A program made the position numbers and the translations under genes. A stretch of DNA of 64,000 nucleotides, from assembly GCA_000182565.2 (NCBI GenBank), contig KQ257468.1; one strand, given 5' to 3'. How positions within the stretch are numbered: the first letter of the stretch is position 1; each line of letters opens with the position of its first letter. The notes under the pieces are model-generated. The model was not told the DNA's origin, did not search any database, and saw nothing but the letters and a program-made list of their open reading frames with translations. Shown here piece by piece: positions 33,576 through 47,436 of this stretch. The stretch is from Spizellomyces punctatus DAOM BR117. Taxonomy: Eukaryota.

Positions 33576-36500
33576 ATGTTGCCGCGTCATGTCCCTGCTG
33601 GCTCAGGGCAGTCCGATCGTGGAGACGATCAGACAATTATAGAAGATGCACAGCACGATCTTACACCTACTCTAAGTCTCTCATCTATCTATGATCGATG
33701 CTACACGCAAGCAGTCTACAAACCCATCGCAACTGAAAATAATGTGGGCAAGCACCACGTTGGAGATTACGAAGCCGTTTACCCCGATTCCTCAGAATCC
33801 TCACTATCAACTCCATTCCTTTCCCCTCCACGACGAAAAGAAACATCAGATGCCTATGACCCCGACGATATGCTGTGTACGGTCGCCGATGAGGCGTGGT
33901 CAGATAGGACACCCAAGATCTCATGGTTCCAACGAGTGCGAAGCTGGTATAAGCCTGTTTACGACTACAAAACTCCAGGATTAAGTTACGATGAAAGACG
34001 TAGACCTCGGTATTGTGGGGGAAGACTGAAACGGTGAGCTTGTTGCTGTGGGTGCAGATTGAAAAGAACAACCATAACAATCGAACTTGAACTGTAGATG
34101 GCAGTTCATCCTGCTTCATGCACTGATCATTGGACTATTCATGGCGATCGTCGTTGCACCCCTCACGTACTTTGTGATCATCCCCGCCATTATTCAGGTC
34201 GGTTATTATGCACTCTTTTGAAGTGAGTAATCCGAACTCAAAAGTTTTCTACTAATCGCAGAGCAAAATCAACGGCATCGATATGAATTCTCTGGGCATT
34301 TCGCGAATTGATGTTGTGAGCTGGTCTGCAAATGGCCTCCGCTTTGGTTTCGCAGCCATCCTGCCGTCCCAGCTCTTCCTTCCAATACGCGTCACCCTCG
34401 CACCAATGTCCGCCGTTGTCGGTGAAAAGAAGAATTTCAAAGATGGTTGGGCAGAAGCTAAATTGCCTGAGTTCAGCATCAAGATCAACGAGGAGATCAA
34501 ACTGGATTTTGAAGGGGATCTCCTAATTCGTGACAGTGTAGCGCTTGCAGGACTGATTGAGGCGTTTTCAAATGATAAACTGCAGGGAATGCCTATCAGG
34601 GCAAAGTTTGGAGCAACAATCAAATTCTGGGGAATTACTTGGTACAAGAATCTCCCTCTACACAAGGATCTGAATGTGCCCGACATAGGCCCAACTGTAG
34701 CTGGTCTCTATAAGGCTCTGCCGCAAGCTGTGAGGGCCAGAAATTTGAGTAAGTTGGAAGTTTCCATTACAGAGGAGAGAAATATGCGAAACTAACCCGT
34801 TGTGAAACAGATCAAGCAATAAGATCCCGTTTTGCAGCAAAGGATCTATGGACTTTTGAGGACCCAAGCCTCCCTGACATGGCCATCCAAAGTGTCAATA
34901 TCTCCATGTCTGATACCGGCCTTGGTTTGAACGTCGGCGTGGTATTCGAAAATCCCACCATTATTCAAGTTGGCGTTCCAACACTTTCCGTCGGGCTCTC
35001 TGTTCTTGACCGTACCATTGCCGTTGTGACATTACAGGGTGTCAATATGTATCGAGGCGTGACTGAGATGAAGCTGGAAGCTGATGTTCGATTCGTTGAG
35101 GCAGAGGCTGAGACCACTGGAAAAGTCATTGGAGCGTTGGTTGGATGGCTGCTTGGAGCGGAGGATCCAGAGGGGATGCGTCCTTCCGTAAAGGGTCCTG
35201 TTGCAATGGAAGGAGTACAATTTGTTGGAGATGTTACGAAACCGCTATCACTATTGCTGCCTGTCAATGCGACCCTCGAGGCACTAAATTTCGGCAATCT
35301 TAAGGGATTATTATCAGTATCAGGTATTGAGAGACTTTTGTCCTCGTCCAAGTTTTCGGCCTCTGTGGGCTCGACCGACATCACTGCCCCCATTTCTCTC
35401 TCGTTACCGCGATTAATACCACTTCCACCCATCGATTTCACGTACATCACATCCTTGAATGTTCATCGAGCCCTGGATGTCACCGTCAACCCGATTCGCA
35501 TTGTGACAGGACCAGAGGATATGAAAATCAGCACAACCGTGGTCGTCGTACCGGTTAACACGGACGCTGCTGCAGCCGGCCTTGCTGCCGCAATCAACCC
35601 CATCTTACAAGCCAAACCGCAGATCTCATCAATAAGCATTTTGGGGCTCACGTTTACCGCGCCGCTTGCTGCTACAAATAACACATCAAACAATACGACA
35701 ACGAGGACAGGTTTCAAATGGTCTGACACCCTTCTTAAACCTACGACCATTCCAGTACCCCTTCCGGTACTATGCATCCCTTGCATTGTGACTCAACTCA
35801 CCCGTAATGGAACACAACTTCCGCTTTCAATACACGCCCTCGACGTCAACCAATTACTTGATGCACCCGGATTTGGAGCCAAAGGGCAAGTAGGGATAGC
35901 GTACCCCACGGCGCTCGCCAAGTTGGAAATGAACGTCGGATACGTCGGAGTCGGTGTACAAATGGGGTCCGCCGCGGTTCCCGTCGTTGGAGTGGACCTA
36001 CCCACAGGGTTACGCTTTTCTCCAATTAATGGGAATGGCGAGACAGCGGTCGATCTTGATGCTCGATTGGTTATTGGAAGGAATGACAAGATTGTAGGAG
36101 TTGTGCAAGGTTTTGTTGATGCCTTCATGGCAGATACCCCAGCGAGCGACGGAGCAACTATTGTTACGATTACAGACATCCTCTTTGGGGCGGCACCGAC
36201 AAACCGATTTGTGACATTCTCGAAGATAGCACTCTCTATCGATACACAGCAGTTCAAAGAGATTGCTTCGACGTTTGTGAACTCAGCCCTCGGCCAAGTG
36301 CTGAAGAAGGATTTGATAGTCTTGAACGACTTGGGCCTCAACGTAATTTCAGCTGGGCAGGTGGATATTGGGATTAAAGCGTTGGTAAGGAATCCGGTGA
36401 TGATTGGGCTAAATATTGGTAGTATTGTCGTGGATGCGGCGTTGGATGATGGCCACTTGTCGGGTGTGTGGGTCTCACCCATCGTGCTTGGCAAGGGTAC

Positions 36501-39500
36501 ATCACCTATAGATTTGGCTGCAAGCGCGACACCGGCGACAGGTGGGAACGGCATGGCGAACAAAGTGGCTGTACTGGTCGGTGACTTAATCGCAGAACAG
36601 ATATCGTCGGTCGTACTGGGCATCAGTGGGTTCAAGATGATTCCACCTGGCATGGTGGCAGGAAATGGAACTGGCGGCGCGATTATTGACCAATTCAGCG
36701 GTCTGAAATTCCGTATCCCCCCCCCCCTGCTACATCGTCTGAATCCTTTGAGATCAGACGCTTCCATCAACCTATCGGAAATCTTAGGTGTTGACCCACA
36801 GCTGAATGGCTTTGGGTTGGCACTATCGAGTGCGTCTGTACGGACGCTCCCGCAAGCGTCTTTGGCAGTGGGCGCCGGGGCCCAACTGACTAATCCTATG
36901 CCAGTTTCCGCTAAAGTCCCTTATGCAGAGATTACAATGGAATTCGGAGGTTTGGACTTTGTGGTGGTGTCCGTGTCCAATATTTCGGTTGTGGCGAAGG
37001 GGACCGGCAGCATGACTCCATCGCTCTCAATGCGGTTTGTCCACAGCGAAGGCATTCAGGATAAAGTGGCTGAGTTCGTCAGCACCTTTATCAACGGGAG
37101 GATAATGGATGGCGTAGGTATCAAGACGATATACTTTGGCACAGGCCCAAATGAACGGAACGACCTTCTTTCCGCCGTAAAGCTAGACGTCAGTTCATTC
37201 ACGAAGAACATCCGAACCGAAAATATTGTGAACGGTATCGTTGGCATGGTTTTAGGCAAAGATTTCCACTTTCCTCTTAGCGTGAACGACCTTTTCGGCG
37301 CCGTAAAACAAATCGTGGAAGGTACGGTGCGTGTGGAGACCCAGGCCAACAAAATCATTGCGGCAAATCTGGATGGGATGAGAATGGCTTTTCCGTTTAC
37401 GATAGATGCTGACATTGGCCTGGTCGGGGTTGGCATCGGGATCGATGGAAATGGGCTTATGGATGTAAACATACCTACAGGTGTCAAAATTGTGACGAGC
37501 AGAATCAATGGGTTGGGAGCTCTTGTCAGATTTGCAGATGGGGAAGGCACGCAGAACAGTGTCGCCGACCTCGGTAGATGGATGTTCGAAGGGAACGAAA
37601 AAGGTGTTAGCATCGTCGCCGCTGGGTTGCGTTTGGGGGTCTCGGACTCGGACAGGATAAGCAGTTTCGATAAAGTCACGATCAGCATTCCGATTCAGTC
37701 TATAATTCGATCGGAAAGCGACTTGTCACCACTCCTGAACCTGTTCGCGCCCTCAATAACGCGAGTCAATTTGGCCACAATGCCTGGGAACGCCATGTCG
37801 CTCGCAGCTGGTGTTGCCATACAATCACCGATTCAACTTGCTGCCAAGTTGGGATGGGTTGGAGCCGATGTGAACTTGGACTCTCATCCTGTTGTGGATG
37901 TTGGCCTTCCCAACCTTGCAATTGATGCTTCCAACGGCTCAAGTACGCTGGCTGTAGCAACATCTTTGTTATTCAAAGACACGGACGGCACTCGCCGAGC
38001 AGTGGCAAAACTGGTCAACGGAATCGCAAATGGCGGTGTGGAAAATGTCATAGGCATTAAAGGTCTCGTGCTGGGCGCGTCGGAAGCGGACTCCATCAAG
38101 TCTTTCCAGAAGCTGTCCATTCCTTTCCGCGTTGCGAGTCTTTTGAGCCAGTTTGGCATGACGGTTCCCGTCGATTACGCGCAAGTCCAACGCTTCCTTA
38201 CATTGGGTCTTCTAAGCATGGCCATAGATATCACCAGTGGTAAGAAAATGGACGTGGGCGTCGGCGCCAATATTTCGATTGTGCCCTTCCCCACGACGAT
38301 CAACATTGGTAGTGTTGGTGTAGAGGTTGACGTAAATGGCGCGGGACTGATGGGAGTCGGACTATCGGAAGGTATCCATATTGGGCGCGCGAATACCGAA
38401 ATCAAGGCTACAGTGACCTTTAGAGAGTCTGACAGGACGGAGAGAGAGGTTGCACGGCTTGTGGATGGATTCCTAAACGGCCCTAAAGTTGGGTCTACCA
38501 TCGGGATAGGCCAACTGGTAATCGGGAACAGTTTTGCGAAAGAAGACCGTATCACCATATTGGATCAGGTCCATCTCCCATTGGATGTAGATAAAGTCTG
38601 CCAAGGGTTGGGGATCGCAGTTCCGATGGATATTACCCAGCTGCTAGGATCGACTTCTACCTCCCTCGGGACCCTCCATATTAAAACCGAACCCCGCCAA
38701 ACGCTGTCTATCACGGCCTCCACCAATTTTACCCTCCCATTCTCGTTCCCAGTTGATCTGAAGGTTGGCTATGTCTCGGCAGGCGCAAATGTTGGCGATA
38801 AGAGAGATCAAATGCACCCGCTGGCCGACTTCAGCATTCCAAATGGCATGGTGATCAAAGGAAATGGGTTTGGGGCCGACCTGAGAGCCTCCTTGAAGTT
38901 CAAAGACCAAGAGGCGACGCGAGAGGTTATTGCGGGTATGGTTCAAGGATTGTTTGATAAAGGCATGGACGGTTGGGTTGGAGTGGAGGGGATCAAGGTC
39001 GGCGGAAGCGAAAACGATGTTATCCGGGCCTTTTCAAAAGTGCGCGTGAATCTCTCGCTGGCAAGACTTCTATCGCAGCTCAATATCGCCACTCCCCTGA
39101 ATCTTCCATCGCTTGCGTCGCAACTGAATGCAACTCTCTCTGACCTGACGGTTGCAACTGCTCCAGCATCCTCTCTGGATGTAAGCACCAAACTTGGGTT
39201 TACCCTACCGTTACCCTTCAGCATCACGTTCCAAGCTGATTACTTTTATGCGCGGGCGACTGTTGGAAATGCTCCACTTGCGGTGCTTCAAATGCCGGGT
39301 CTAAGTTTGGGCACTGCTGATCACGGACGTAATACTCTCAATGTTGCGACCCGACTGAAGTTTTTAGAGACCGAGCAGGGGATGACTGAAGTTGCGAGGA
39401 TAGTTGATAACGTACTGCAAAGAGATAAGGCAGATTCCAGCGTTGGAGTTGATGGAGTGATGTTTGGTAGTAGTGACGATCCGGACAATTGGGTATGCAA

Positions 39501-42500
39501 CCTTGTCCTTAGCTGAAATCTACCCACAGGTGCTAATCGCCGAACACTCTCTAGATTCGCTTTCTCTCCAAAGCCAAAATCAATCTGCCCGCTGATTCTC
39601 TTCTTCAATCCTTCGGCGTGACCCTCCCTTTGTCGTTGACCTCTCTGCCATCAAGGCTCAATGTTACAATGGATAATCCTGTGCAGCTTAAAACACTGCC
39701 AAAACGTCAAATGGCCGTCAATACTGTGGCCAGTTTCGCCATGCCTTTTGCAATCGACTTGAGTATCGGTTTTGTCAGCGTTCGAGCCAATGTGAATGGG
39801 AAAGGGTTGGTTAATGTCGCCCTGCCTGGACTAACGGTGAAAAAAGATGAAGGAAGAAGCCGAATTACAGTAGATACAGTTGTGACGTTTGAGGATGGAT
39901 CGGATATCCAAGTGGAATTGGCAAACGTTGTCGCTGAAATTGTAGAGGCAAAGTTGAAGAGTAGGGTTGGCGTGGACCACCTAGTGTTTGGGGTCAGTGA
40001 GCAGGATACGGTATGTGTCGAGGAAAGAAGACAAGTCTTTGAAAATTGAAACTAATTTTGTTGGATAAACAGATCAAGTCATTCTCCAAAGCAAATCTGG
40101 CTCTCCCCGTGTCCGCCTTTGTCAATGCCACGGAGCCTATAAATCTGGGCACTGTCACGGCCTCCTACCTGGAAAGCATGCTCTTGTCGAACAATTCTTC
40201 AGAGTCAACAGGTCTAACAATCAAGCACGCATCCCTATCTGCGCTTCCATCCGACAAACTCAATGCCAAGGCGCAAGCTCACGTCCCACTCCCACTGCCA
40301 TTCAAGGTGGAGTTGGACATTGGGTACGCAGGCGTGAGGTGGATTGGAGTGGACAAAACCAAAGTTTTGGGAGTTGATGTTCGAGGAATACAACTCAAAG
40401 ATGAGAACGTGGAAATTGACGCCCTTATGGGGTTTGAAGACTCGGGCGATTCTAGAAGCGTTCTGAAGCACGTAACTGATGGGAATGGTGATGGCTCGTT
40501 TCCTGGCACGCTTGGTATCGCCGGTTTGGTGTTTGGCGCTACCGATGGTGACATTATTCAGGTGAGCGTGGTCTGATTTATCAGGGAAACGATCGAACAA
40601 GTGATTCTAAATAACTTCGTGGTATTAGGCCTTTTCAAAGATCGAGCTACCAATTCCAATCAACCCCGTTGGCCAAGTACTCTCTAAATATGTCAATCAG
40701 CTTATTGATAACCTGCTGTCTGGAGTTCCATCAACTGGTGCAATCCAACATGCACCTTCCAAAGGCTTCCAAATCCATTTCTCAAAAAATGCTTCACTGA
40801 CCATCTCTCACGCTAGTGTTGAGTTTCAACCTGCAAGTATAATAACCGCGGACGTAACCGGGAGCCTACAATTTCCGGTTGATATCGCGGCGGATTTGCC
40901 ATTTCTTGCAGTTGCAATCGGATTGGATGATGTCAGCTTTCTCGATACTAGCGTAAACGGTGTCAAAATCAATGGCCAAGGTGAAAATGGCCTGCAGCTC
41001 GGTGCTAAGCTTAAAGTCTTCGACTCGGATCCCGTTCAAGATAAAGTTGCGGCGATTGCTACGGCTTTCTTCGACAATCAGAGCAACCTCCCAGGTCGCT
41101 TGAGAATTACCGGGATCAAACTCGGTGTAGCATCGATAGATTCTATCGAGACTTTTAGCGAAATGGTGTTTTCCTTGTCCCTTGATCGAGTCCTCGGCCC
41201 TTTCATCAAAGGTTCGAAAAACCAAACACTTGACATTGGAGAGTATGTCAACGGGATCAAACTCAATAAAGTAGGGGTTCGCGCAGTAGAAGGTCGAGCT
41301 CTGATAGTGGACGCCGGAGTCGGATTTAACAGTCTATTCCCCATCACTATCAAAGGGCTTGGCTATGTTGCTGTCGATCTTGGGGTGGACGAAGTGGACT
41401 TGATGACGGTAGGCTTACCTGGGATAATGTTGGTTGACGGTGCAAACTCCATGGACCTCCGCGTGAACGTCGGTTTTCGTTCATCGGATAGCGTTCAGAC
41501 AAAGGTGGCGTCGTTCTTCCAGAATATCTACACCGTTGGATGGGGTAACACCAAGGAACTGCTTGCTCTCGCTGGTCTAAAAGTCGGATACAGTGAAAAC
41601 GACTACATACGCGCCTTCTCAAAAGCTAGGTTCGGACTTCCCAGTGCGACTGTGCTAAGTCCCGGAAATGTCGATTGGGTCCTGTCCCTAGTTGGCATGA
41701 ATCGCTCAGATTTCACTGCAGCGAACTTACTGCCGCGTATCGATATACGAGGCGCTCATATATCGTTCGATGACCAAGACAGGTTACAAGTTGTTGGCAA
41801 AGCTCTTTTGAAAGGCTTCTCCATTGACGCTTCGATTGCTTTCCCACACGTGTCTACTCAACTCGGACTGAGCGGGCTAGTGTTTGCGGATTTGGAGATG
41901 AAAAATCTTGTTATCAGGCAACAAGGTGGAAATGGACTCTTGACCGAATTTACCATGACCATGGCATTCCCTAATGGTGGAACAGGCGGGATTCAGCAAG
42001 CTGTGGCCGATATCGCGAGTGATATGCAAAAACCAAATGGAACAATTAGGGGCGTTGGGCAAGCGACCAAGTTTGGATTCGGCGTTTCCAGGGATGACAT
42101 GATTGACGCCCTTGGAAAATGTGTGGGTGAACTCTCCATGCAATCCATCGGCAGACCCGCTGCATCCCTTTTCCACGATCTGTTAGTATCAGTGGTTCTC
42201 GACCTTGTCGATTTGGCTCCTGTGAGCGAGAGTGCCTTAGAAGCGAACGTAATTGCCCATATGACCCCTATCATTCCAGACATTATGGCGTCGATTCCCT
42301 TCTTGTTTATTGACGTTCGAGTGGATAGCAATGTCTTCGTAATGGCAGAAGCGACAGATATTCGACTCGACCCGTCAGGCAAAGTGCTTGTCAAGGCAAA
42401 TGCGGGATTTGCATTGCAAAATCGCGCCGCGGCGCAGACACTGGCTACTATCGGTGGAGACGCCATATTCCGGCGTCCAAAGCCAATCTCAACCAAGGTT

Positions 42501-43847
42501 GCTTTTAGCGGTATCAGATTTGGAAGGTCAAAGGAGACTGCCATACGAATCGCTGAGACCGCGATCATCGATTTCGATGTAGCGACCTTCCTAAAGGGCG
42601 TTGCGGACTATATCTCATCCCCTGCAACTGAGATGGTTCTCACAGATATTATTACCCAGATTACACCGGAAGGCGCCGATGTCAAAGCAACAGGCAAACC
42701 TCTCGGACCCCTCATGCCATTCCGAGCCCGACCCGGAGCTAGCGCTGTAGCGGTTGTGACATACGACAAAACAGATATCGTTCAAGTGTATTTCAACAAA
42801 ATCGGCATTGAACCTGGCAAGCCTATTGAGCTGGACATCAAAGTCCACTTCCTTCTTCCAAATGTCGTAGAATCCCTGCAAGATATCATTCCGCGGTTGC
42901 TGACATGGCGAAATATTGCAGAACGAGCCACTTTGGGCAAATTGGCATTAACAATGGGTGACCCACGGTCTCCGAGTGTCAGCTTCAATATGTTTGACCA
43001 AGTCGCCATTCAGGCCCCCGAACTTTATATGTATCAGCCGCTGGTTGTTCGTCCCAAACTCGTCAATCCGTTAACCCAGGGTCTTGGCCTCGATGTCTTT
43101 GTCGGTATGCCAAATCCTGGTCCATTCCATTTGAATCTGGGTGTTGTCGGTGCGAAGATCACGAATGGTGGAGGAGAGTTTGGACGCGCCAGCACACCAG
43201 ACGGGATCGTTCTTAAGAATGTAAACGAGGGCGGCAATGATCCGAACCGTAATCAGTTCCGGCTGGCGGTTCGGCTAGAATTACCTAAGAATCCTCTGTT
43301 GATCTGGGGAGCGCTTCTCGACATTCTAACGGGAAAATTCACTGATTTTAACCTCGAGTTCTTTGCGGAAACGATCGGGGGCCAGCGGGTTCCGTGGTTG
43401 ACAGCGTGTTTGGATGGTGTTCCACTATATCTCAAAGGCAACCTTTTGCGAATTATTGTGGGTCTCCTTACACATATGAAAATCCAGCTTGGACCGCTTA
43501 CGATTCCGCCGCCTCCGATATTTAACCAGGCAGCGCAGAACCTCCTTGGCAGCCTGCCGCAACAGGTGCTGATTACAGACTTTGATGCTCCACTGGGCTT
43601 CCTGCCAGCAAATTCGACGCTTCCCGCCGCTAATCAAACGATACCGGCGAACATTACCTCGTCGGTCTCCTCATCCTTGTCTGCTCCGACCGTTTCCACA
43701 ACAGTTATACTGCAACCAACTTCCAGCGCGCCTAATAGGGCTGCTTCAGCGCCCGCACCCGCGCGGTCAGTCTCGGCATCGGCGTCGTTTGTTGCATCAG
43801 CCACAGCCGCAAGGCCACCGCCAGTACCATCACTGGTCGTTACTTAG
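33576..43847 (+). CDS. Giant (~3,300 aa) type II membrane protein of tandem ~150-160 aa Tag1/DUF3712(LEA_2)-like beta-rich repeats
   Basis: Approximate exons 33576-34033, 34099-34197 (TM: FILLHALIIGLFMAIVVAPLTYFVIIPAII), 34262-34749, 34811-39492, 39555-40010, 40073-40561 and 40629-43847. Recurring G(L/I)xFG...DxIxxFSK motif, many N-x-S/T sequons and an S/T/A/P-rich tail. Family assignment is from recall of the architecture. Confidence 0.75.
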
Positions 43848-44214
43848 AGTTTATACTTATTCATATATGTTACATAGCTAAGACCTCAGAAGCCTTTAAA
43901 TTATTCGCAGCCTGCAACAGTACATAGATAGACTAGCCACATATTGTAAGCTTAAATACGATACCATATATTAAGACCCCCTGGCAGATAAGATTACTAA
44001 ATCTCGTTCGTTCAACATTATCACTGACTATACTGAGTTACTACTCATAGAATAATCATCAGCCGCTTGAGAGCAGTATCATTCTTGAAAGATAGTCATC
44101 TTCAATACTGTTCAACCATCAACGTCCGCTATGCTGGCTGGATTTTCCTTGCGCTTTTGACGACGCATGTCAATAGGATTTGCTACTGATATTTACTATC
44201 ACGAAGGAATTTCT

Positions 44215-46049
44215 TCAAGATTTGAGGGCATGGTACAGTAGCAGAACACCGCCGGTTTCAGCCTTGTAATGAACAATTTCAAGCAAGTGTTCAGAAGAAA
44301 TGCGAAGAATGAATAAATGGGAAGGTGATGCAATCCACCTCCTGTCGTTCATAACTGAAATCTGCATGCGTACCTTATCCCTTGCTTCACCAACTGTGAT
44401 ATGTTTATCTAGCGGTTTCCCATGAATTGGTCGTGATAAAGTAACAACAAAGTCGTCGCTCGTCAGATCGCGAAATTGATCCGACTGCGCCGCGTAGTAC
44501 TCTCGGAGAACCATGGAGAGATGACCCACTGGAGAAGCAAGGAACACCTTTAACATCGCTTAACCATATATATGAGAATCTTAGAATCGCAACCTGTGCA
44601 TTCGTTTTCGGTACGTAGACGCAGGACTTCACCCAGTGGGAGGCGTTTGTCACAGGGGTGGGCTATAGCTGTGACTTCGATGGTCTCATCGGGGAGAAAG
44701 AGTCTCAGCATGCTTATCACATGCGTAACACCTTCCAGATCCAAAATACGCACCCACGGGGGTTGGTCTTGACCTGACAAAGTTTGAATACTCGCAGGCT
44801 CAGGCGATGGTGCGTCAGATACTGATGTTTCAGAACGAACTCCATCACTCTCCGTGTTGGATTCGCCGCATGTACCATTTTCAGACTCTATCTCGTAATC
44901 GTCATGACCATCCGGTGATATTCGTGGAGAACGTGCTGCCAGCGACAATTAGATGGACAAGACGTGAATTTAAAGGCGAAATCTTATAACATCCCTACCT
45001 AATCCATTTGCACAATCTGCAGCACCCACGGTAGTCGAGCGTTTCTGAGCGGGGACCACAGCGCTCTCTATAAGCATGAGTCCTGAAACGAGAAGATTCT
45101 CTCGGTATGATTCTACTCACCACACCCCGGCCCTTGCGGACCATTTCCTGCCTTTTAATACCCTCCTCGTACATTTTCCGGAGATTAAACGTTGATCTCG
45201 CAATTATGCTGTCGAGCTCAGTAGCGTCTTCCGTTTCAGATGATCCCAAGCTGGGATAGATCATTCGTATAATCTCGTCGAATCGGGTATCTGGGCGCAG
45301 ATTGCGCATGGAATGGCACTCTCGTCGACACGCAGGACACTCTTTGTTTCTGTCGGATATGTTAGCATCGAGAGCCAGTCAGCTCCACTGGTAAAGAGTG
45401 CATAACATACCCTTTGAAGAGTGCTTCCCTAATGCATGCATAGCAAAAGCGATGCATGCACTTTACACAGTTTTAATATCCCTCAAGATGGAATCATGAT
45501 CTGAATATTTCTTACCTCCACAGTTACCATTGTCTGTTGAAGGATATTCCGACACACTGGACAGGTGAATTCTTCACTCAGGACTTTGAGGGGACTGAAA
45601 TGCAGAGGTACAAGTTATAAAATGGTCCGGAATTACCTTTATCTGACAAAGCCAACAAGGTGCTACGTAGTGCTTATGAAGCCTCTCGCTCCTCTGACTT
45701 TGGCGCAATTATGGAAAAGCTTCCTGCCAGAACTCACAGTGTCACCTGAGTATCATCGGTTATTATAGGTATTGGAGGTCGTTGTTTTTCGTACGCAGAT
45801 AAGCCTGGAATAAACATAAAATTGCTCAAATACAATCCTTTCCACATGTCGGTCTTCGTACGGACTCTAACACATACGCAATCGGTAATCGTCCTCTGAC
45901 TGAGATTCGCTCTCATCAGCATTTCTCGCTCGTTTGTTTTTTGACTTTCCCTGCTGTACGACAGTCTTTCTTCAGAACACCGCGTGGGCTTTTCCTACGG
46001 TACATCCGGCGCCAGTATAACTTACTACAGTTTTTGTTCTAGCCTCCAT
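44215..46049 (-). CDS. RING1: RING1/RNF2 (Sce)-like PRC1 E3 ubiquitin ligase: N-terminal C3HC4 RING plus C-terminal RAWUL-like domain; multi-exon
   Basis: Spliced translation LSAYEKQRPPIPIITDDTQVTLPLKVLSEEFTCPVCRNILQQTMVTVECMHRFCYACIREALFKGNKECPACRRECHSMRNLRPDTRFDEIIRMIYP parallels the RNF2 N-terminus. C-terminus IEVTAIAHP...LRLRT...LDKHITVGEARDK|AETGGVLLLYHA fits RAWUL. Confidence 0.87.
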
Positions 46050-46206
46050 TGCTGAAGCGTTGATTGATACAGAGTCTGCAGATAATTTCAGCTTTCACAA
46101 CTCTTGCAAGCGGTCCGAACATTAAAACAAAAAATGTCAAGTGGTTGTTCAGTCGCCGTGGGAAGCACTGCACGCGTTGCGACTTCGATCGTGTTCGTAA
46201 TGATTA

Positions 46207-46347: not shown

Positions 46348-47436
46348 ATGAAGGTAGATGTCGACTTTGCGAATTTAATGAGGAGGGGATGTTGGGTGGA
46401 ATGGGAACGGGTCGATGGATGGATGGATGGACGGATGGATGGATGGATGAGCATGGGTGCTGGGACGTTCGGAGCATGAGTTAGATAGTTGGAAATGACG
46501 GACATTTGGACTAACTAGTGCCCTTCCTTGACCTCCCGATATTAGTTGAACATTGCGTACCCCGCTCTCGGGACCCAAAAGTGCATTGAGGTCGACGATG
46601 AGCGCAAGTAGTGAGTATTTTGGACAGTTGCAAGTGACAAACTCGGCTCAGAAACATCGAATCGGACGTGATCCTCACCTACCCAAACTCTTGTTCTATT
46701 TTCGATTAGCCGTATCTTCTACGACAAGCGCATGTCGACTGAAGTGAAGGGTGATGCCCTCGGTGACGAGTTCAAGGGCTACGTCTTCAAGATCACTGGT
46801 GGAAACGACAAACAAGGTTTCCCCATGAAGCAGGGTGTTTTGGAGGCCCGCCGTGTCCGTCTCCTCCTCTCTGCTGGTCACTCCTGCTACCGTCCTCGCC
46901 GGACGGGAGAGCGCAAGCGCAAGTCCGTCCGTGGGTGTATCGTCGGCAGTGACATTTCAGCTCTCTCCCTTGTTGTTGTGAAGCAGGGTGAGGCCGACAT
47001 TCCCGGTTTGACCGACACCCAGATCCCTAAGCGCCTCGGACCCAAGAGGGCTAGCAAAATCCGCAAGATGTTCAACCTCAGCAAGGAGGACGATGTTCGC
47101 AAATACGTCATCCGCCGCGAGATCCCCGGTAAGGGTGACAAAAAGGGCTACACCAAGGCCCCCAAGATCCAGCGGTTGGTCACTCCCCGTACTCTTCAGC
47201 GCAAGCGTCACTTGCTTGCTCTCAAGCGTCGTCAATCTGAGAAGGTTCAGGAGGTACGTAGTCGCATCTTGGCGGAATTTCACCGATGGTTGTGTTAACT
47301 TCATATGTCTCTAAAGGATGCTGCTGAGTACGCCAAGATTCTTGCTCAGCGTATCAAGGAGCGCAACCAGAAGCGTCAGGAACTCCACCTGAAGCGCCGT
47401 CTGTCTTCGACCCGCAAATCTACCGCCCAGGCATAG
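46348..47436 (+). CDS. RPS6: 40S ribosomal protein S6 (eS6); 4 exons
   Basis: Exons 46348-46353 (MK), 46546-46610 ([21 protein letters not shown]), 46710-47253 ([30 protein letters not shown]) and 47317-47436 with the [11 protein letters not shown] phospho-tail. Confidence 0.98.
46414..46448. repeat. Short imperfect (GGAT)n tract in RPS6 intron 1
   Basis: gatggatggatggatggacggatggatggatgga, about 8 units with one variant. Confidence 0.9.

What the first reader, a model, noticed from the sequence alone, without database searches (positions are those of the whole stretch)
44215..46049. Polycomb PRC1 catalytic subunit (RING1/RNF2 orthologue) in a fungus
Seen only after manual splicing; the ORF track misses the RING. 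It has the RING1-specific N-terminal arm (LSAYEKQRPP..ITD), a C3HC4 RING ending GNKECPACR..LRPDTRFDEII..IYP, and a C-terminal RAWUL-like domain. Known: PRC1 and H2AK119 ubiquitylation are generally described as absent from yeasts and filamentous Dikarya. Inference: this lineage may retain a PRC1/H2Aub silencing system. The basic nucleosome-binding patch appears retained (CRRE..MRNLR).
Basis: partly seen in the sequence, partly recalled or inferred. Interest (0 to 1): 0.78.

Follow-up and report, generated by a model that had tools for sequence, protein, structure and literature searches.

The report
Known RING1 orthologue in a chytrid
This is a real gene for the RING1/RNF2-type Polycomb ubiquitin ligase subunit, but it sits in an early-branching chytrid fungus where such genes have already been reported, and part of its histone-binding surface has changed.

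Summary
Window 44215-46049 (minus strand) encodes, in 11 exons, a 348-aa protein identical to SPPG_08072 of the chytrid Spizellomyces punctatus DAOM BR117.

Its N-terminal arm, C3HC4 RING and C-terminal extension match human RNF2/RING2 far better than any other solved RING. E-values are 2e-35 to 2e-26 for RNF2, against about 1e-9 for TRIM21, PCGF5 and RNF4.

Pfam's RAWUL model misses the C-terminal domain. Profile-profile comparison (96.4%, E 1e-9) and a confident AlphaFold2 model both identify it as RAWUL. The model's best ubiquitin-like matches are the RING1B C-terminal domain.

So it is a RING1 orthologue. It is not new. PRC1 orthologues in this species are stated by de Potter et al. 2023, citing Grau-Bové et al. 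2022, and the organism is not a dikaryon.

The "retained basic patch" is only partly true. The R98 anchor is kept, but K93 is E, K97 is M and R81 is F in all five Spizellomycetales.

A PCGF partner and H2A ubiquitylation could not be tested here.

The parts
44215..46049 (-). Whole coding region of the RING1/RNF2 orthologue (SPPG_08072, 348 aa, 11 exons): 46049-46026, 45953-45878, 45804-45738, 45594-45516, 45460-45411, 45349-45121, 45044-44999, 44935-44754, 44684-44594, 44528-44374, 44262-44215
   Evidence: P0002 maps exactly to these exons. The joined CDS is 1047 nt and translates to P0002. All introns are GT..AG.
45564..45804 (-). N-terminal arm (aa 34-66, LSAYEKQRPPIPIITD...). It aligns to RNF2 residues 18-50. 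It contains intron 3 (45595-45737).
   Evidence: The phmmer alignment to full-length RING2 starts at RNF2 residue 18. VIA aligns model residues 27-32 onward to RING1B chains.
45325..45563 (-). C3HC4 RING (C67..R107), split by introns 4 (45461-45515) and 5 (45350-45410)
   Evidence: Pfam zf-C3HC4_2 at 4.8e-11, residues 67-106. The eight zinc ligands are invariant in 71 homologues.
45250..45324 (-). Post-RING nucleosome-contact loop and helix (R108..S132: RECHSMRNLRPDTRFDEIIRMIYPS). E109 = K93, M113 = K97, R114 = R98 of human RNF2.
   Evidence: Ungapped alignment to RNF2. Residue counts in 67 and 144 other homologues.
44215..44756 (-). RAWUL-fold C-terminal domain (aa 251-348), with introns 8 (44685-44753), 9 (44529-44593) and 10 (44263-44373)
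   Evidence: hhalign 96.4%, E 1e-9 over 97 columns. AF2 block-mean pLDDT is 83-97, mostly 89 or more, over residues 251-348. Foldseek 3ixs_I E 1.5e-6, TMt 0.80. VIA 3ixs_I Z 13.8, rmsd 2.4, 92 aligned.
44757..45120 (-). Helix (aa 133-173) followed by a low-complexity acidic/serine-rich disordered linker. It spans the end of exon 6, exon 7 and most of exon 8.
   Evidence: AF2 gives helix H133-173, and block-mean pLDDT of 46-54 for residues 181-250. This stretch is poorly conserved among orthologues.

Best explanation
The gene is the chytrid orthologue of animal RING1/RNF2 (Drosophila Sce), the RING subunit of PRC1-type E3 ligases. It is the annotated S. punctatus gene SPPG_08072.

Shown here: a zinc-binding C3HC4 RING; the RING1-specific N-terminal arm and C-terminal extension; and a RAWUL ubiquitin-like domain joined by a disordered linker.

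Inferred from the family:
- The RING recruits a UbcH5-type E2. The E2-contact position I53 is V69.
- The N-terminal arm clasps the RING of a PCGF-type partner.
- The RAWUL domain docks accessory proteins.
- The R98-equivalent arginine (R114) can still insert into the nucleosome acidic patch.

The rest of the basic nucleosome-binding surface is replaced in the whole order Spizellomycetales: K93 to E or D, K97 to M, R81 to F or Q. Efficient H2AK119-type ubiquitylation is therefore doubtful rather than expected.

The presence of PRC1 orthologues in this species is already published.
For: Identity:
- P0002 (SPPG_08072) is encoded exactly by the window.

Orthology:
- PDB phmmer gives ten RING2/RING1B sequences at E 1.9e-35 to 1.6e-26. 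The next hits are TRIM21 at 6.9e-10, PCGF5 at 8.9e-10 and BMI1 at 2.3e-07.
- A four-sequence profile gives the same order, 2e-41 against 2e-11.
- P0002 is 50.5% identical over 99 aa to the RING2 half of a RING2-BMI1 chimera, and 29% to the BMI1 half. All 153 of 153 collected sequences score higher on the RING2 half.
- The best hits outside the order include sequences from Culicoides, Strigamia and Ciona named RING-type E3 ubiquitin transferase, 85-92% identical to the RING2 half, plus amoebozoan sequences.

RAWUL:
- 32 of 71 aligned homologues carry Pfam RAWUL.
- hhalign of the chytrid C-terminal profile against a RAWUL profile built only from sequences outside the order gives 96.4%, E 1e-9.
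- The AF2 model shows a beta-beta-alpha-beta-alpha-beta domain with block-mean pLDDT of 83-97.
- The best ubiquitin-like matches are the RING1B C-terminal domain: 3ixs, 3gs2 and 3h8h at Z 13.8, 13.0 and 12.4. PCGF1 RAWUL scores 11.4 and Atg12 11.3.

Conservation:
- Orthologues occur in five further Spizellomycetales genera and a second Spizellomyces species. They form one clade (SH-like support 100) in a FastTree tree of the RING region.

Literature:
- PMC10638273, sections 6 and 9.
Against: - Pfam's RAWUL model does not hit P0002, or any of the four chytrid C-termini, even at E 10.
- A chytrid C-terminal profile finds no RAWUL chain in the PDB by sequence.
- The AF2 alignment contained RAWUL-bearing homologues, so the fold prediction is not independent of them.
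- No PCGF partner could be looked for, because no genome is held.
- Expression and splicing were not confirmed. The one RNA run laid gave 83 short reads, mostly at 44100-44240, with no splice joints and ambiguous strand.
- K93-to-aspartate is reported to abolish nucleosomal H2A ubiquitylation by human RING1B (review PMC7998361, passages only). The chytrid protein naturally has E there.
- H2AK119ub was reported only in some holozoans, in a survey that included this strain.
Confidence: 0.85

Rival explanations
1. One reading: the lineage keeps a canonical PRC1/H2Aub silencing system. In it this protein, paired with a PCGF, writes H2AK119-type monoubiquitin through the acidic-patch mechanism seen in 4R8P.
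For: The orthology, N-terminal arm and RAWUL domain are all present. The arginine anchor R98 is kept, as in 144 of 144 other homologues. The E2-contact I53 is V, as in 26 of 144 others. De Potter et al. speak of PRC1 orthologues, in the plural, in S. punctatus.
Against: K93 is E or D, K97 is M and R81 is F or Q in 5 of 5 Spizellomycetales. Among 144 others, K93 is K in 101 (acidic in 2), K97 is K or R in 132, and R81 is R in 128. K93D is reported to abolish nucleosomal H2A ubiquitylation in human RING1B (review passage). H2AK119ub was not reported outside holozoans in proteomics that included this strain, although the authors warn of false negatives. No PCGF, RYBP or BAP1 was examined here.
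Confidence: 0.3
2. A generic RING E3 (TRAF-, TRIM- or BRCA1-like, or a PCGF) that only resembles RING1 through the shared RING fold.
For: Pfam names only generic RING families. RING domains of many families are hit at E 1e-5 to 1e-10.
Against: There is a gap of about 16 orders of magnitude in E-value between the weakest RNF2 chain (1.6e-26) and the best non-RING1 hit (6.9e-10), and about 25 orders from the best RNF2 chain. The alignment runs outside the RING, through the arm and the LRPDxxFDxxIxxIYP extension. The C-terminal domain matches RAWUL best.
Confidence: 0.03
3. A decaying or unexpressed gene, or a gene-model artefact.
For: No splice-spanning RNA reads were obtained. Two annotated relatives, P0001 and P0006, have truncated or aberrant ends.
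Against: The frame is intact over 11 exons with canonical splice sites. 93 columns are invariant across four genera, including all zinc ligands and RAWUL core positions. The aberrant relatives look like annotation errors: P0001 reads through the position of intron 10.
Confidence: 0.04

Closest known systems
Human RNF2/RING1B (and RING1A; Drosophila Sce), catalytic RING subunit of PRC1
   Same: Same architecture: N-terminal arm, C3HC4 RING, LRPD..FD..I..IYP extension, helix, disordered linker, RAWUL. About 50% identity over the arm and RING. The RAWUL fold matches 3ixs, 3gs2 and 3h8h at Z 12.4-13.8. R98 is kept.
   Different: K93 is E, K97 is M, R81 is F and D56 is N. The RAWUL domain is only about 20% identical and falls below the Pfam threshold. 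The linker sequence is unrelated. No partner or substrate is shown.
PCGF proteins (BMI1, PCGF1, PCGF5), the RING+RAWUL partners of RING1
   Same: Same two-domain layout. The RING and RAWUL folds both match, with PCGF1 RAWUL at Z 11.4.
   Different: Similarity is much weaker: E 1e-7 to 1e-9 against 1e-32, and 29% against 50.5% identity. The RING1-type N-terminal arm is present instead.
PRC1 orthologues reported in deep-branching fungi (de Potter et al. 2023, PMC10638273; Grau-Bové et al. 2022)
   Same: Same species and same family. That paper also notes that Pfam RAWUL often fails and that AlphaFold2 reveals the domain.
   Different: I could not see the supplements, so I cannot confirm that SPPG_08072 is the exact accession they scored, nor whether they scored a PCGF in this species. 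They describe K97 as well conserved across RING1 orthologues. This clade is an exception.

Membership tests
RING1/RNF2 (PRC1 catalytic RING subunit) | C3HC4 RING with eight zinc ligands in RING1 spacing | tested here: met
   C67, C70, C83, H85, C88, C91, C103 and C106. Pfam zf-C3HC4_2 at 4.8e-11. These positions are invariant in 71 homologues.
RING1/RNF2 (PRC1 catalytic RING subunit) | Closest similarity to RING1/RNF2 rather than to other RING families | tested here: met
   RNF2 chains at E 1.9e-35 to 1.6e-26, against 6.9e-10 or weaker for others. The profile search agrees. 153 of 153 collected sequences are nearer the RING2 half than the BMI1 half. No broad multi-family tree was built: the only outgroup rows were three vertebrate BMI1/PCGF2 RINGs.
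RING1/RNF2 (PRC1 catalytic RING subunit) | N-terminal arm before the RING and the LRPD..FD..IYP extension after it | tested here: met
   Ungapped alignment of query 34-135 to RNF2 18-119. VIA aligns model residues 27-133 to RING1B chains at Z 14.2-15.4.
RING1/RNF2 (PRC1 catalytic RING subunit) | C-terminal RAWUL ubiquitin-like domain | tested here: met
   Pfam PF16207 is not hit and PDB sequence search finds nothing. However, hhalign gives 96.4%, E 1e-9. AF2 block-mean pLDDT is 83-97 over the domain. Foldseek 3ixs_I gives E 1.5e-6 and TMt 0.80. VIA gives Z 13.8, rmsd 2.4, 92 aligned.
PRC1 as an H2AK119 ubiquitin ligase (function) | Arginine anchor R98 for the nucleosome acidic patch | tested here: met
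   R114. It is R in 144 of 144 other homologues and in 5 of 5 chytrids.
PRC1 as an H2AK119 ubiquitin ligase (function) | Other basic nucleosome-contact residues K93 and K97 (R81 recalled) | tested here: not met
   E109, M113 and F97. All 5 of 5 Spizellomycetales have E or D, M, and F or Q at these positions. Among 144 others, position 93 is K in 101, position 97 is K or R in 132, and position 81 is R in 128. The roles of K93, K97 and R98 come from review passages. The role of R81 is recalled only.
PRC1 as an H2AK119 ubiquitin ligase (function) | E2-contact residues I53 and D56 | tested here: inconclusive
   V69 is conservative; V occurs in 26 of 144 others. N72 replaces D56, and D56 is said to be conserved only in metazoans.
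PRC1 as an H2AK119 ubiquitin ligase (function) | PCGF heterodimer partner encoded in the genome | not testable with these tools
   No genome is held. A search with the BMI1 RING listed only vertebrate BMI1/PCGF proteins, the best 120 of 690.
PRC1 as an H2AK119 ubiquitin ligase (function) | H2A C-terminal monoubiquitylation present in the organism | not testable with these tools
   Literature only. H2AK119ub was seen only in some holozoans in a survey that included this strain, with a stated risk of false negatives.
PCGF (BMI1-type RING+RAWUL) | Closest similarity to PCGF RINGs | tested here: not met
   BMI1/PCGF chains at E 1e-7 to 1e-9, against 1e-32 for RNF2. 29% against 50.5% identity.

The most novel reading that the evidence does not exclude
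In the order Spizellomycetales the RING1 orthologue has lost three of four basic nucleosome-contact residues while keeping the arginine anchor: K93 to E or D (a charge reversal), K97 to M, and R81 to F or Q. Among 149 RING1-like sequences, the combination of an acidic residue at 93 with a non-basic residue at 97 occurs only in this clade. This would be a natural PRC1-type ligase that no longer writes H2AK119ub in the canonical way. It may have moved to another substrate or to a non-catalytic role. That would fit the lack of detected H2AK119ub in this species.
Probability: 0.3. Interest if true: 0.5.

Novelty: already known. Interest (0 to 1): 0.28.

Why it matters
The textbook statement that fungi lack PRC1 is true of Dikarya but not of deep-branching fungi. 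This locus is a clean, well-conserved example of that. However, this was published in 2022-2023, and the gene is in the public annotation.

What remains open is whether a fungal RING1 actually ubiquitylates H2A. The clade-specific replacement of K93, K97 and R81 gives a concrete, testable reason to doubt it. It also makes this chytrid a useful natural experiment on what PRC1 did before, or apart from, H2AK119ub. I recall from no call here that the chytrid is genetically tractable.

Tried and rejected
- **Whole-genome search for RAWUL/PCGF.** PCGF, RYBP and BAP1/ASXL were therefore never examined.
- **Pfam on single exons.** Nothing useful.
- **Pfam and PDB sequence search with the chytrid C-terminal profile.** No RAWUL hit, only chance-level rows at E 0.23 and 1.1.
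- **RAWUL HMM built from sequences outside the order.** It hit the chytrid C-termini only weakly, at 8-17 bits, though at the right place.
- **RNA evidence.** One RNA run (X10) gave 83 reads of up to 60 nt, 72 of them only partly aligned, concentrated at 44100-44240. There were no joints, and all had the first mate on the minus strand. This cannot tell this gene's 3' UTR from that of the plus-strand neighbour, and it gives no splicing evidence. Runs X4-X6 are collinear with the genome, introns included, so they are probably DNA.
- **BMI1-RING search for a fungal PCGF.** Only vertebrate BMI1/PCGF proteins were listed.
- **My first 9-exon model** (424 aa). Dropped in favour of the deposited 11-exon model, because P0003-P0005 lack the two extra in-frame segments.
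- **Earlier notes of this scan.** None exist for this genome or topic.
- **The published version of Grau-Bové 2022.** Not held. I read the bioRxiv version by passages.
- **Complex prediction.** Not used. No candidate partner from this organism was available, and a human stand-in or a homodimer test would not have changed the verdict.
- **Deep placement in the tree.** The FastTree tree (112 columns, 153 rows) resolves the chytrid clade but not its deeper placement: 75 of 149 inner branches are open.

Full report
**What is there.** Reading the minus strand of 44100-46150 shows a multi-exon gene. The RING is split over three short exons, so no single ORF shows it. I first spliced it by eye into nine exons, giving 424 aa.

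A search with the last exon returned two named proteins. One of them is P0002, 'uncharacterized protein SPPG_08072 [Spizellomyces punctatus DAOM BR117]', 348 aa. P0002 maps letter for letter onto eleven window exons. The joined CDS of 1047 nt translates to P0002, and all ten introns are GT..AG and 55-143 nt long.

The deposited model differs from my first one mainly by removing two in-frame, stop-free introns (69 nt at 44685-44753 and 111 nt at 44263-44373). Orthologues from Phlyctochytrium, Powellomyces and Fimicolochytrium lack those segments, so I adopt the deposited model. The organism is a chytrid: Chytridiomycota, Spizellomycetales.

**Is it RING1?**
- Against all solved structures, P0002 hits ten RING2/RING1B sequences at E 1.9e-35 to 1.6e-26. 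The next families are TRIM21 at 6.9e-10, PCGF5 at 8.9e-10, RNF4 at 9.9e-10, BMI1 at 2.3e-07 and BRCA1 at 3.1e-07.
- The alignment is ungapped from query 34 to 135 against RNF2 18-119. It therefore covers the RING1-specific N-terminal arm and the LRPD..FD..I..IYP extension, not just the RING.
- A four-genus profile gives the same order, 2e-41 against 2e-11.
- A profile search of 1.84 billion representatives found 112 proteins at E 1e-30 or better.
- Named hits outside the order include sequences from Culicoides, Strigamia and Ciona, named RING-type E3 ubiquitin transferase and 85-92% identical to the RING2 half of the chimera. They also include amoebozoan and choanoflagellate sequences, and one protein labelled RNF1/2.
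- All 153 of 153 collected sequences score higher against the RING2 half than the BMI1 half of a RING2-BMI1 chimera. P0002 is 50.5% identical over 99 aa to the former and 29% to the latter.
- In a quick tree, the five Spizellomycetales rows form one clade with SH-like support of 100. They are separate from three PCGF outgroup rows. Deeper placement is unresolved.
- The ESM Atlas neighbours are RING2 and RING1a clusters.

**Is there a RAWUL domain?**
- Pfam names only generic RING families for P0002, and nothing for the C-terminal 103-136 residues of four orthologues.
- A profile of those C-termini finds no RAWUL chain in the PDB by sequence.
- However, 32 of 71 aligned full-length homologues carry Pfam RAWUL.
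- A RAWUL HMM seeded on three animal sequences, and grown only on sequences outside the order, hits the chytrid C-termini weakly but at the right place.
- hhalign of the two profiles gives 96.4% probability and E 1e-9 over 97 columns, the whole domain.
- AlphaFold2 with the 71-sequence alignment gives mean pLDDT 79. Block-mean pLDDT is 83-97, mostly 89 or more, for residues 251-348. The topology is beta-beta-alpha-beta-alpha-beta.
- Foldseek matches this domain to the RING1B C-terminal domain: 3ixs_I at E 1.5e-6 and TMt 0.80, and 3h8h at TMt 0.80.
- VIA-align ranks 3ixs_I (Z 13.8, rmsd 2.4, 92 aligned), 3gs2_C (Z 13.0) and 3h8h (Z 12.4) above UAF1 (11.6), PCGF1 RAWUL (11.4) and Atg12 (11.3).
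- The margin over other ubiquitin-like folds is modest, and the AF2 alignment contained RAWUL proteins. Together with hhalign, though, the domain is RAWUL.

**Functional residues.** Numbering follows the ungapped alignment to full-length RNF2. I checked it on the chimera.
- I53 is V69. V occurs in 26 of 144 other homologues.
- D56 is N72.
- R98 is R114. It is R in 144 of 144 others.
- K97 is M113. It is K or R in 132 of 144 others.
- K93 is E109. It is K in 101 of 144 others and acidic in 2.
- R81 is F97. It is R in 128 of 144 others.

All five Spizellomycetales with a RING share E or D at position 93, M at 97, and F or Q at 81. Among 149 sequences, the pairing of an acidic 93 with a non-basic 97 occurs only in them.

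A review (PMC7998361, passages seen) makes three relevant statements. R98, K93 and K97 form the acidic-patch interface, with R98 the most critical. R98A lowers nucleosomal ubiquitylation 50-fold. K93-to-aspartate abolishes H2A K118/K119 ubiquitylation. I did not see the primary papers for K93D. The role of R81 is recalled only.

**What is already in print.**
- De Potter et al. 2023 (PMC10638273; sections 6 and 9 and other passages read) state that fungi were believed to lack PRC1. [quoted passage not shown] 2022.
- They also note that Pfam often misses RAWUL and that AlphaFold2 reveals it.
- They report that I53, K97 and R98 are well conserved.
- They state that H2AK119ub has not been detected outside holozoans and Arabidopsis.
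- The bioRxiv version of Grau-Bové et al. (passages read) shows that histones of strain DAOM BR117 itself were analysed. It reports H2AK119ub 'only in some holozoan species', and says ubiquitylation is hard to detect without enrichment.
- A full-text search for Spizellomyces plus Polycomb found 6 papers. Only these two appear relevant by title and abstract.
- Supplements were closed. I therefore cannot confirm the accession they used, nor whether a PCGF was scored for this species.

**What could not be done.** No genome is held, so PCGF, RYBP, BAP1/ASXL and H2A were not examined. A BMI1-RING search listed only vertebrate proteins. RNA reads gave no splice or strand evidence.

**Verdict.** The novelty claim fails: the organism is a chytrid, not a dikaryon, and the point is already published. 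The H2Aub inference remains open, and the clade-specific loss of K93, K97 and R81 weakens it.

Noticed in passing
window 46672-47298 (+): First large exon of ribosomal protein S6e (Pfam PF01092, E 3.6e-48). It is transcribed divergently from the RING1 gene, across an intergenic region of about 620 bp.
   Followed up: partly
window 46415-46450: A short (GGAT)n-type microsatellite (tggatggatggatggacggatggatggatggatg) lies in the shared intergenic region between the RING1 gene and RPS6.
   Followed up: no
window 40629-43847 (+) and 34753-39516 (+): Two very long uninterrupted ORFs (1072 and 1587 aa) have no Pfam family at E 1e-5. The first ends in a Ser/Ala/Pro-rich tail and lies convergent to the RING1 gene.
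   Followed up: partly
window 44100-44240: The only appreciable RNA read depth in the laid stretch (18-30x, all with the first mate on the minus strand) sits just past the RING1 stop codon. It could be this gene's 3' UTR or that of the convergent plus-strand neighbour.
   Followed up: no
window 44685-44753 and 44263-44373: Introns 8 and 10 are multiples of three (69 and 111 nt) and contain no stop codon, so retained-intron isoforms would stay in frame. The deposited model of the sister species (P0001) reads through the equivalent of intron 10.
   Followed up: partly
P0001 (Spizellomyces sp. 'palustris') and P0006 (Gaertneriomyces semiglobifer): The deposited models look mis-annotated. P0001 starts at the M113 equivalent and so lacks the RING. 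P0006 has an unrelated C-terminus in place of RAWUL.
   Followed up: no
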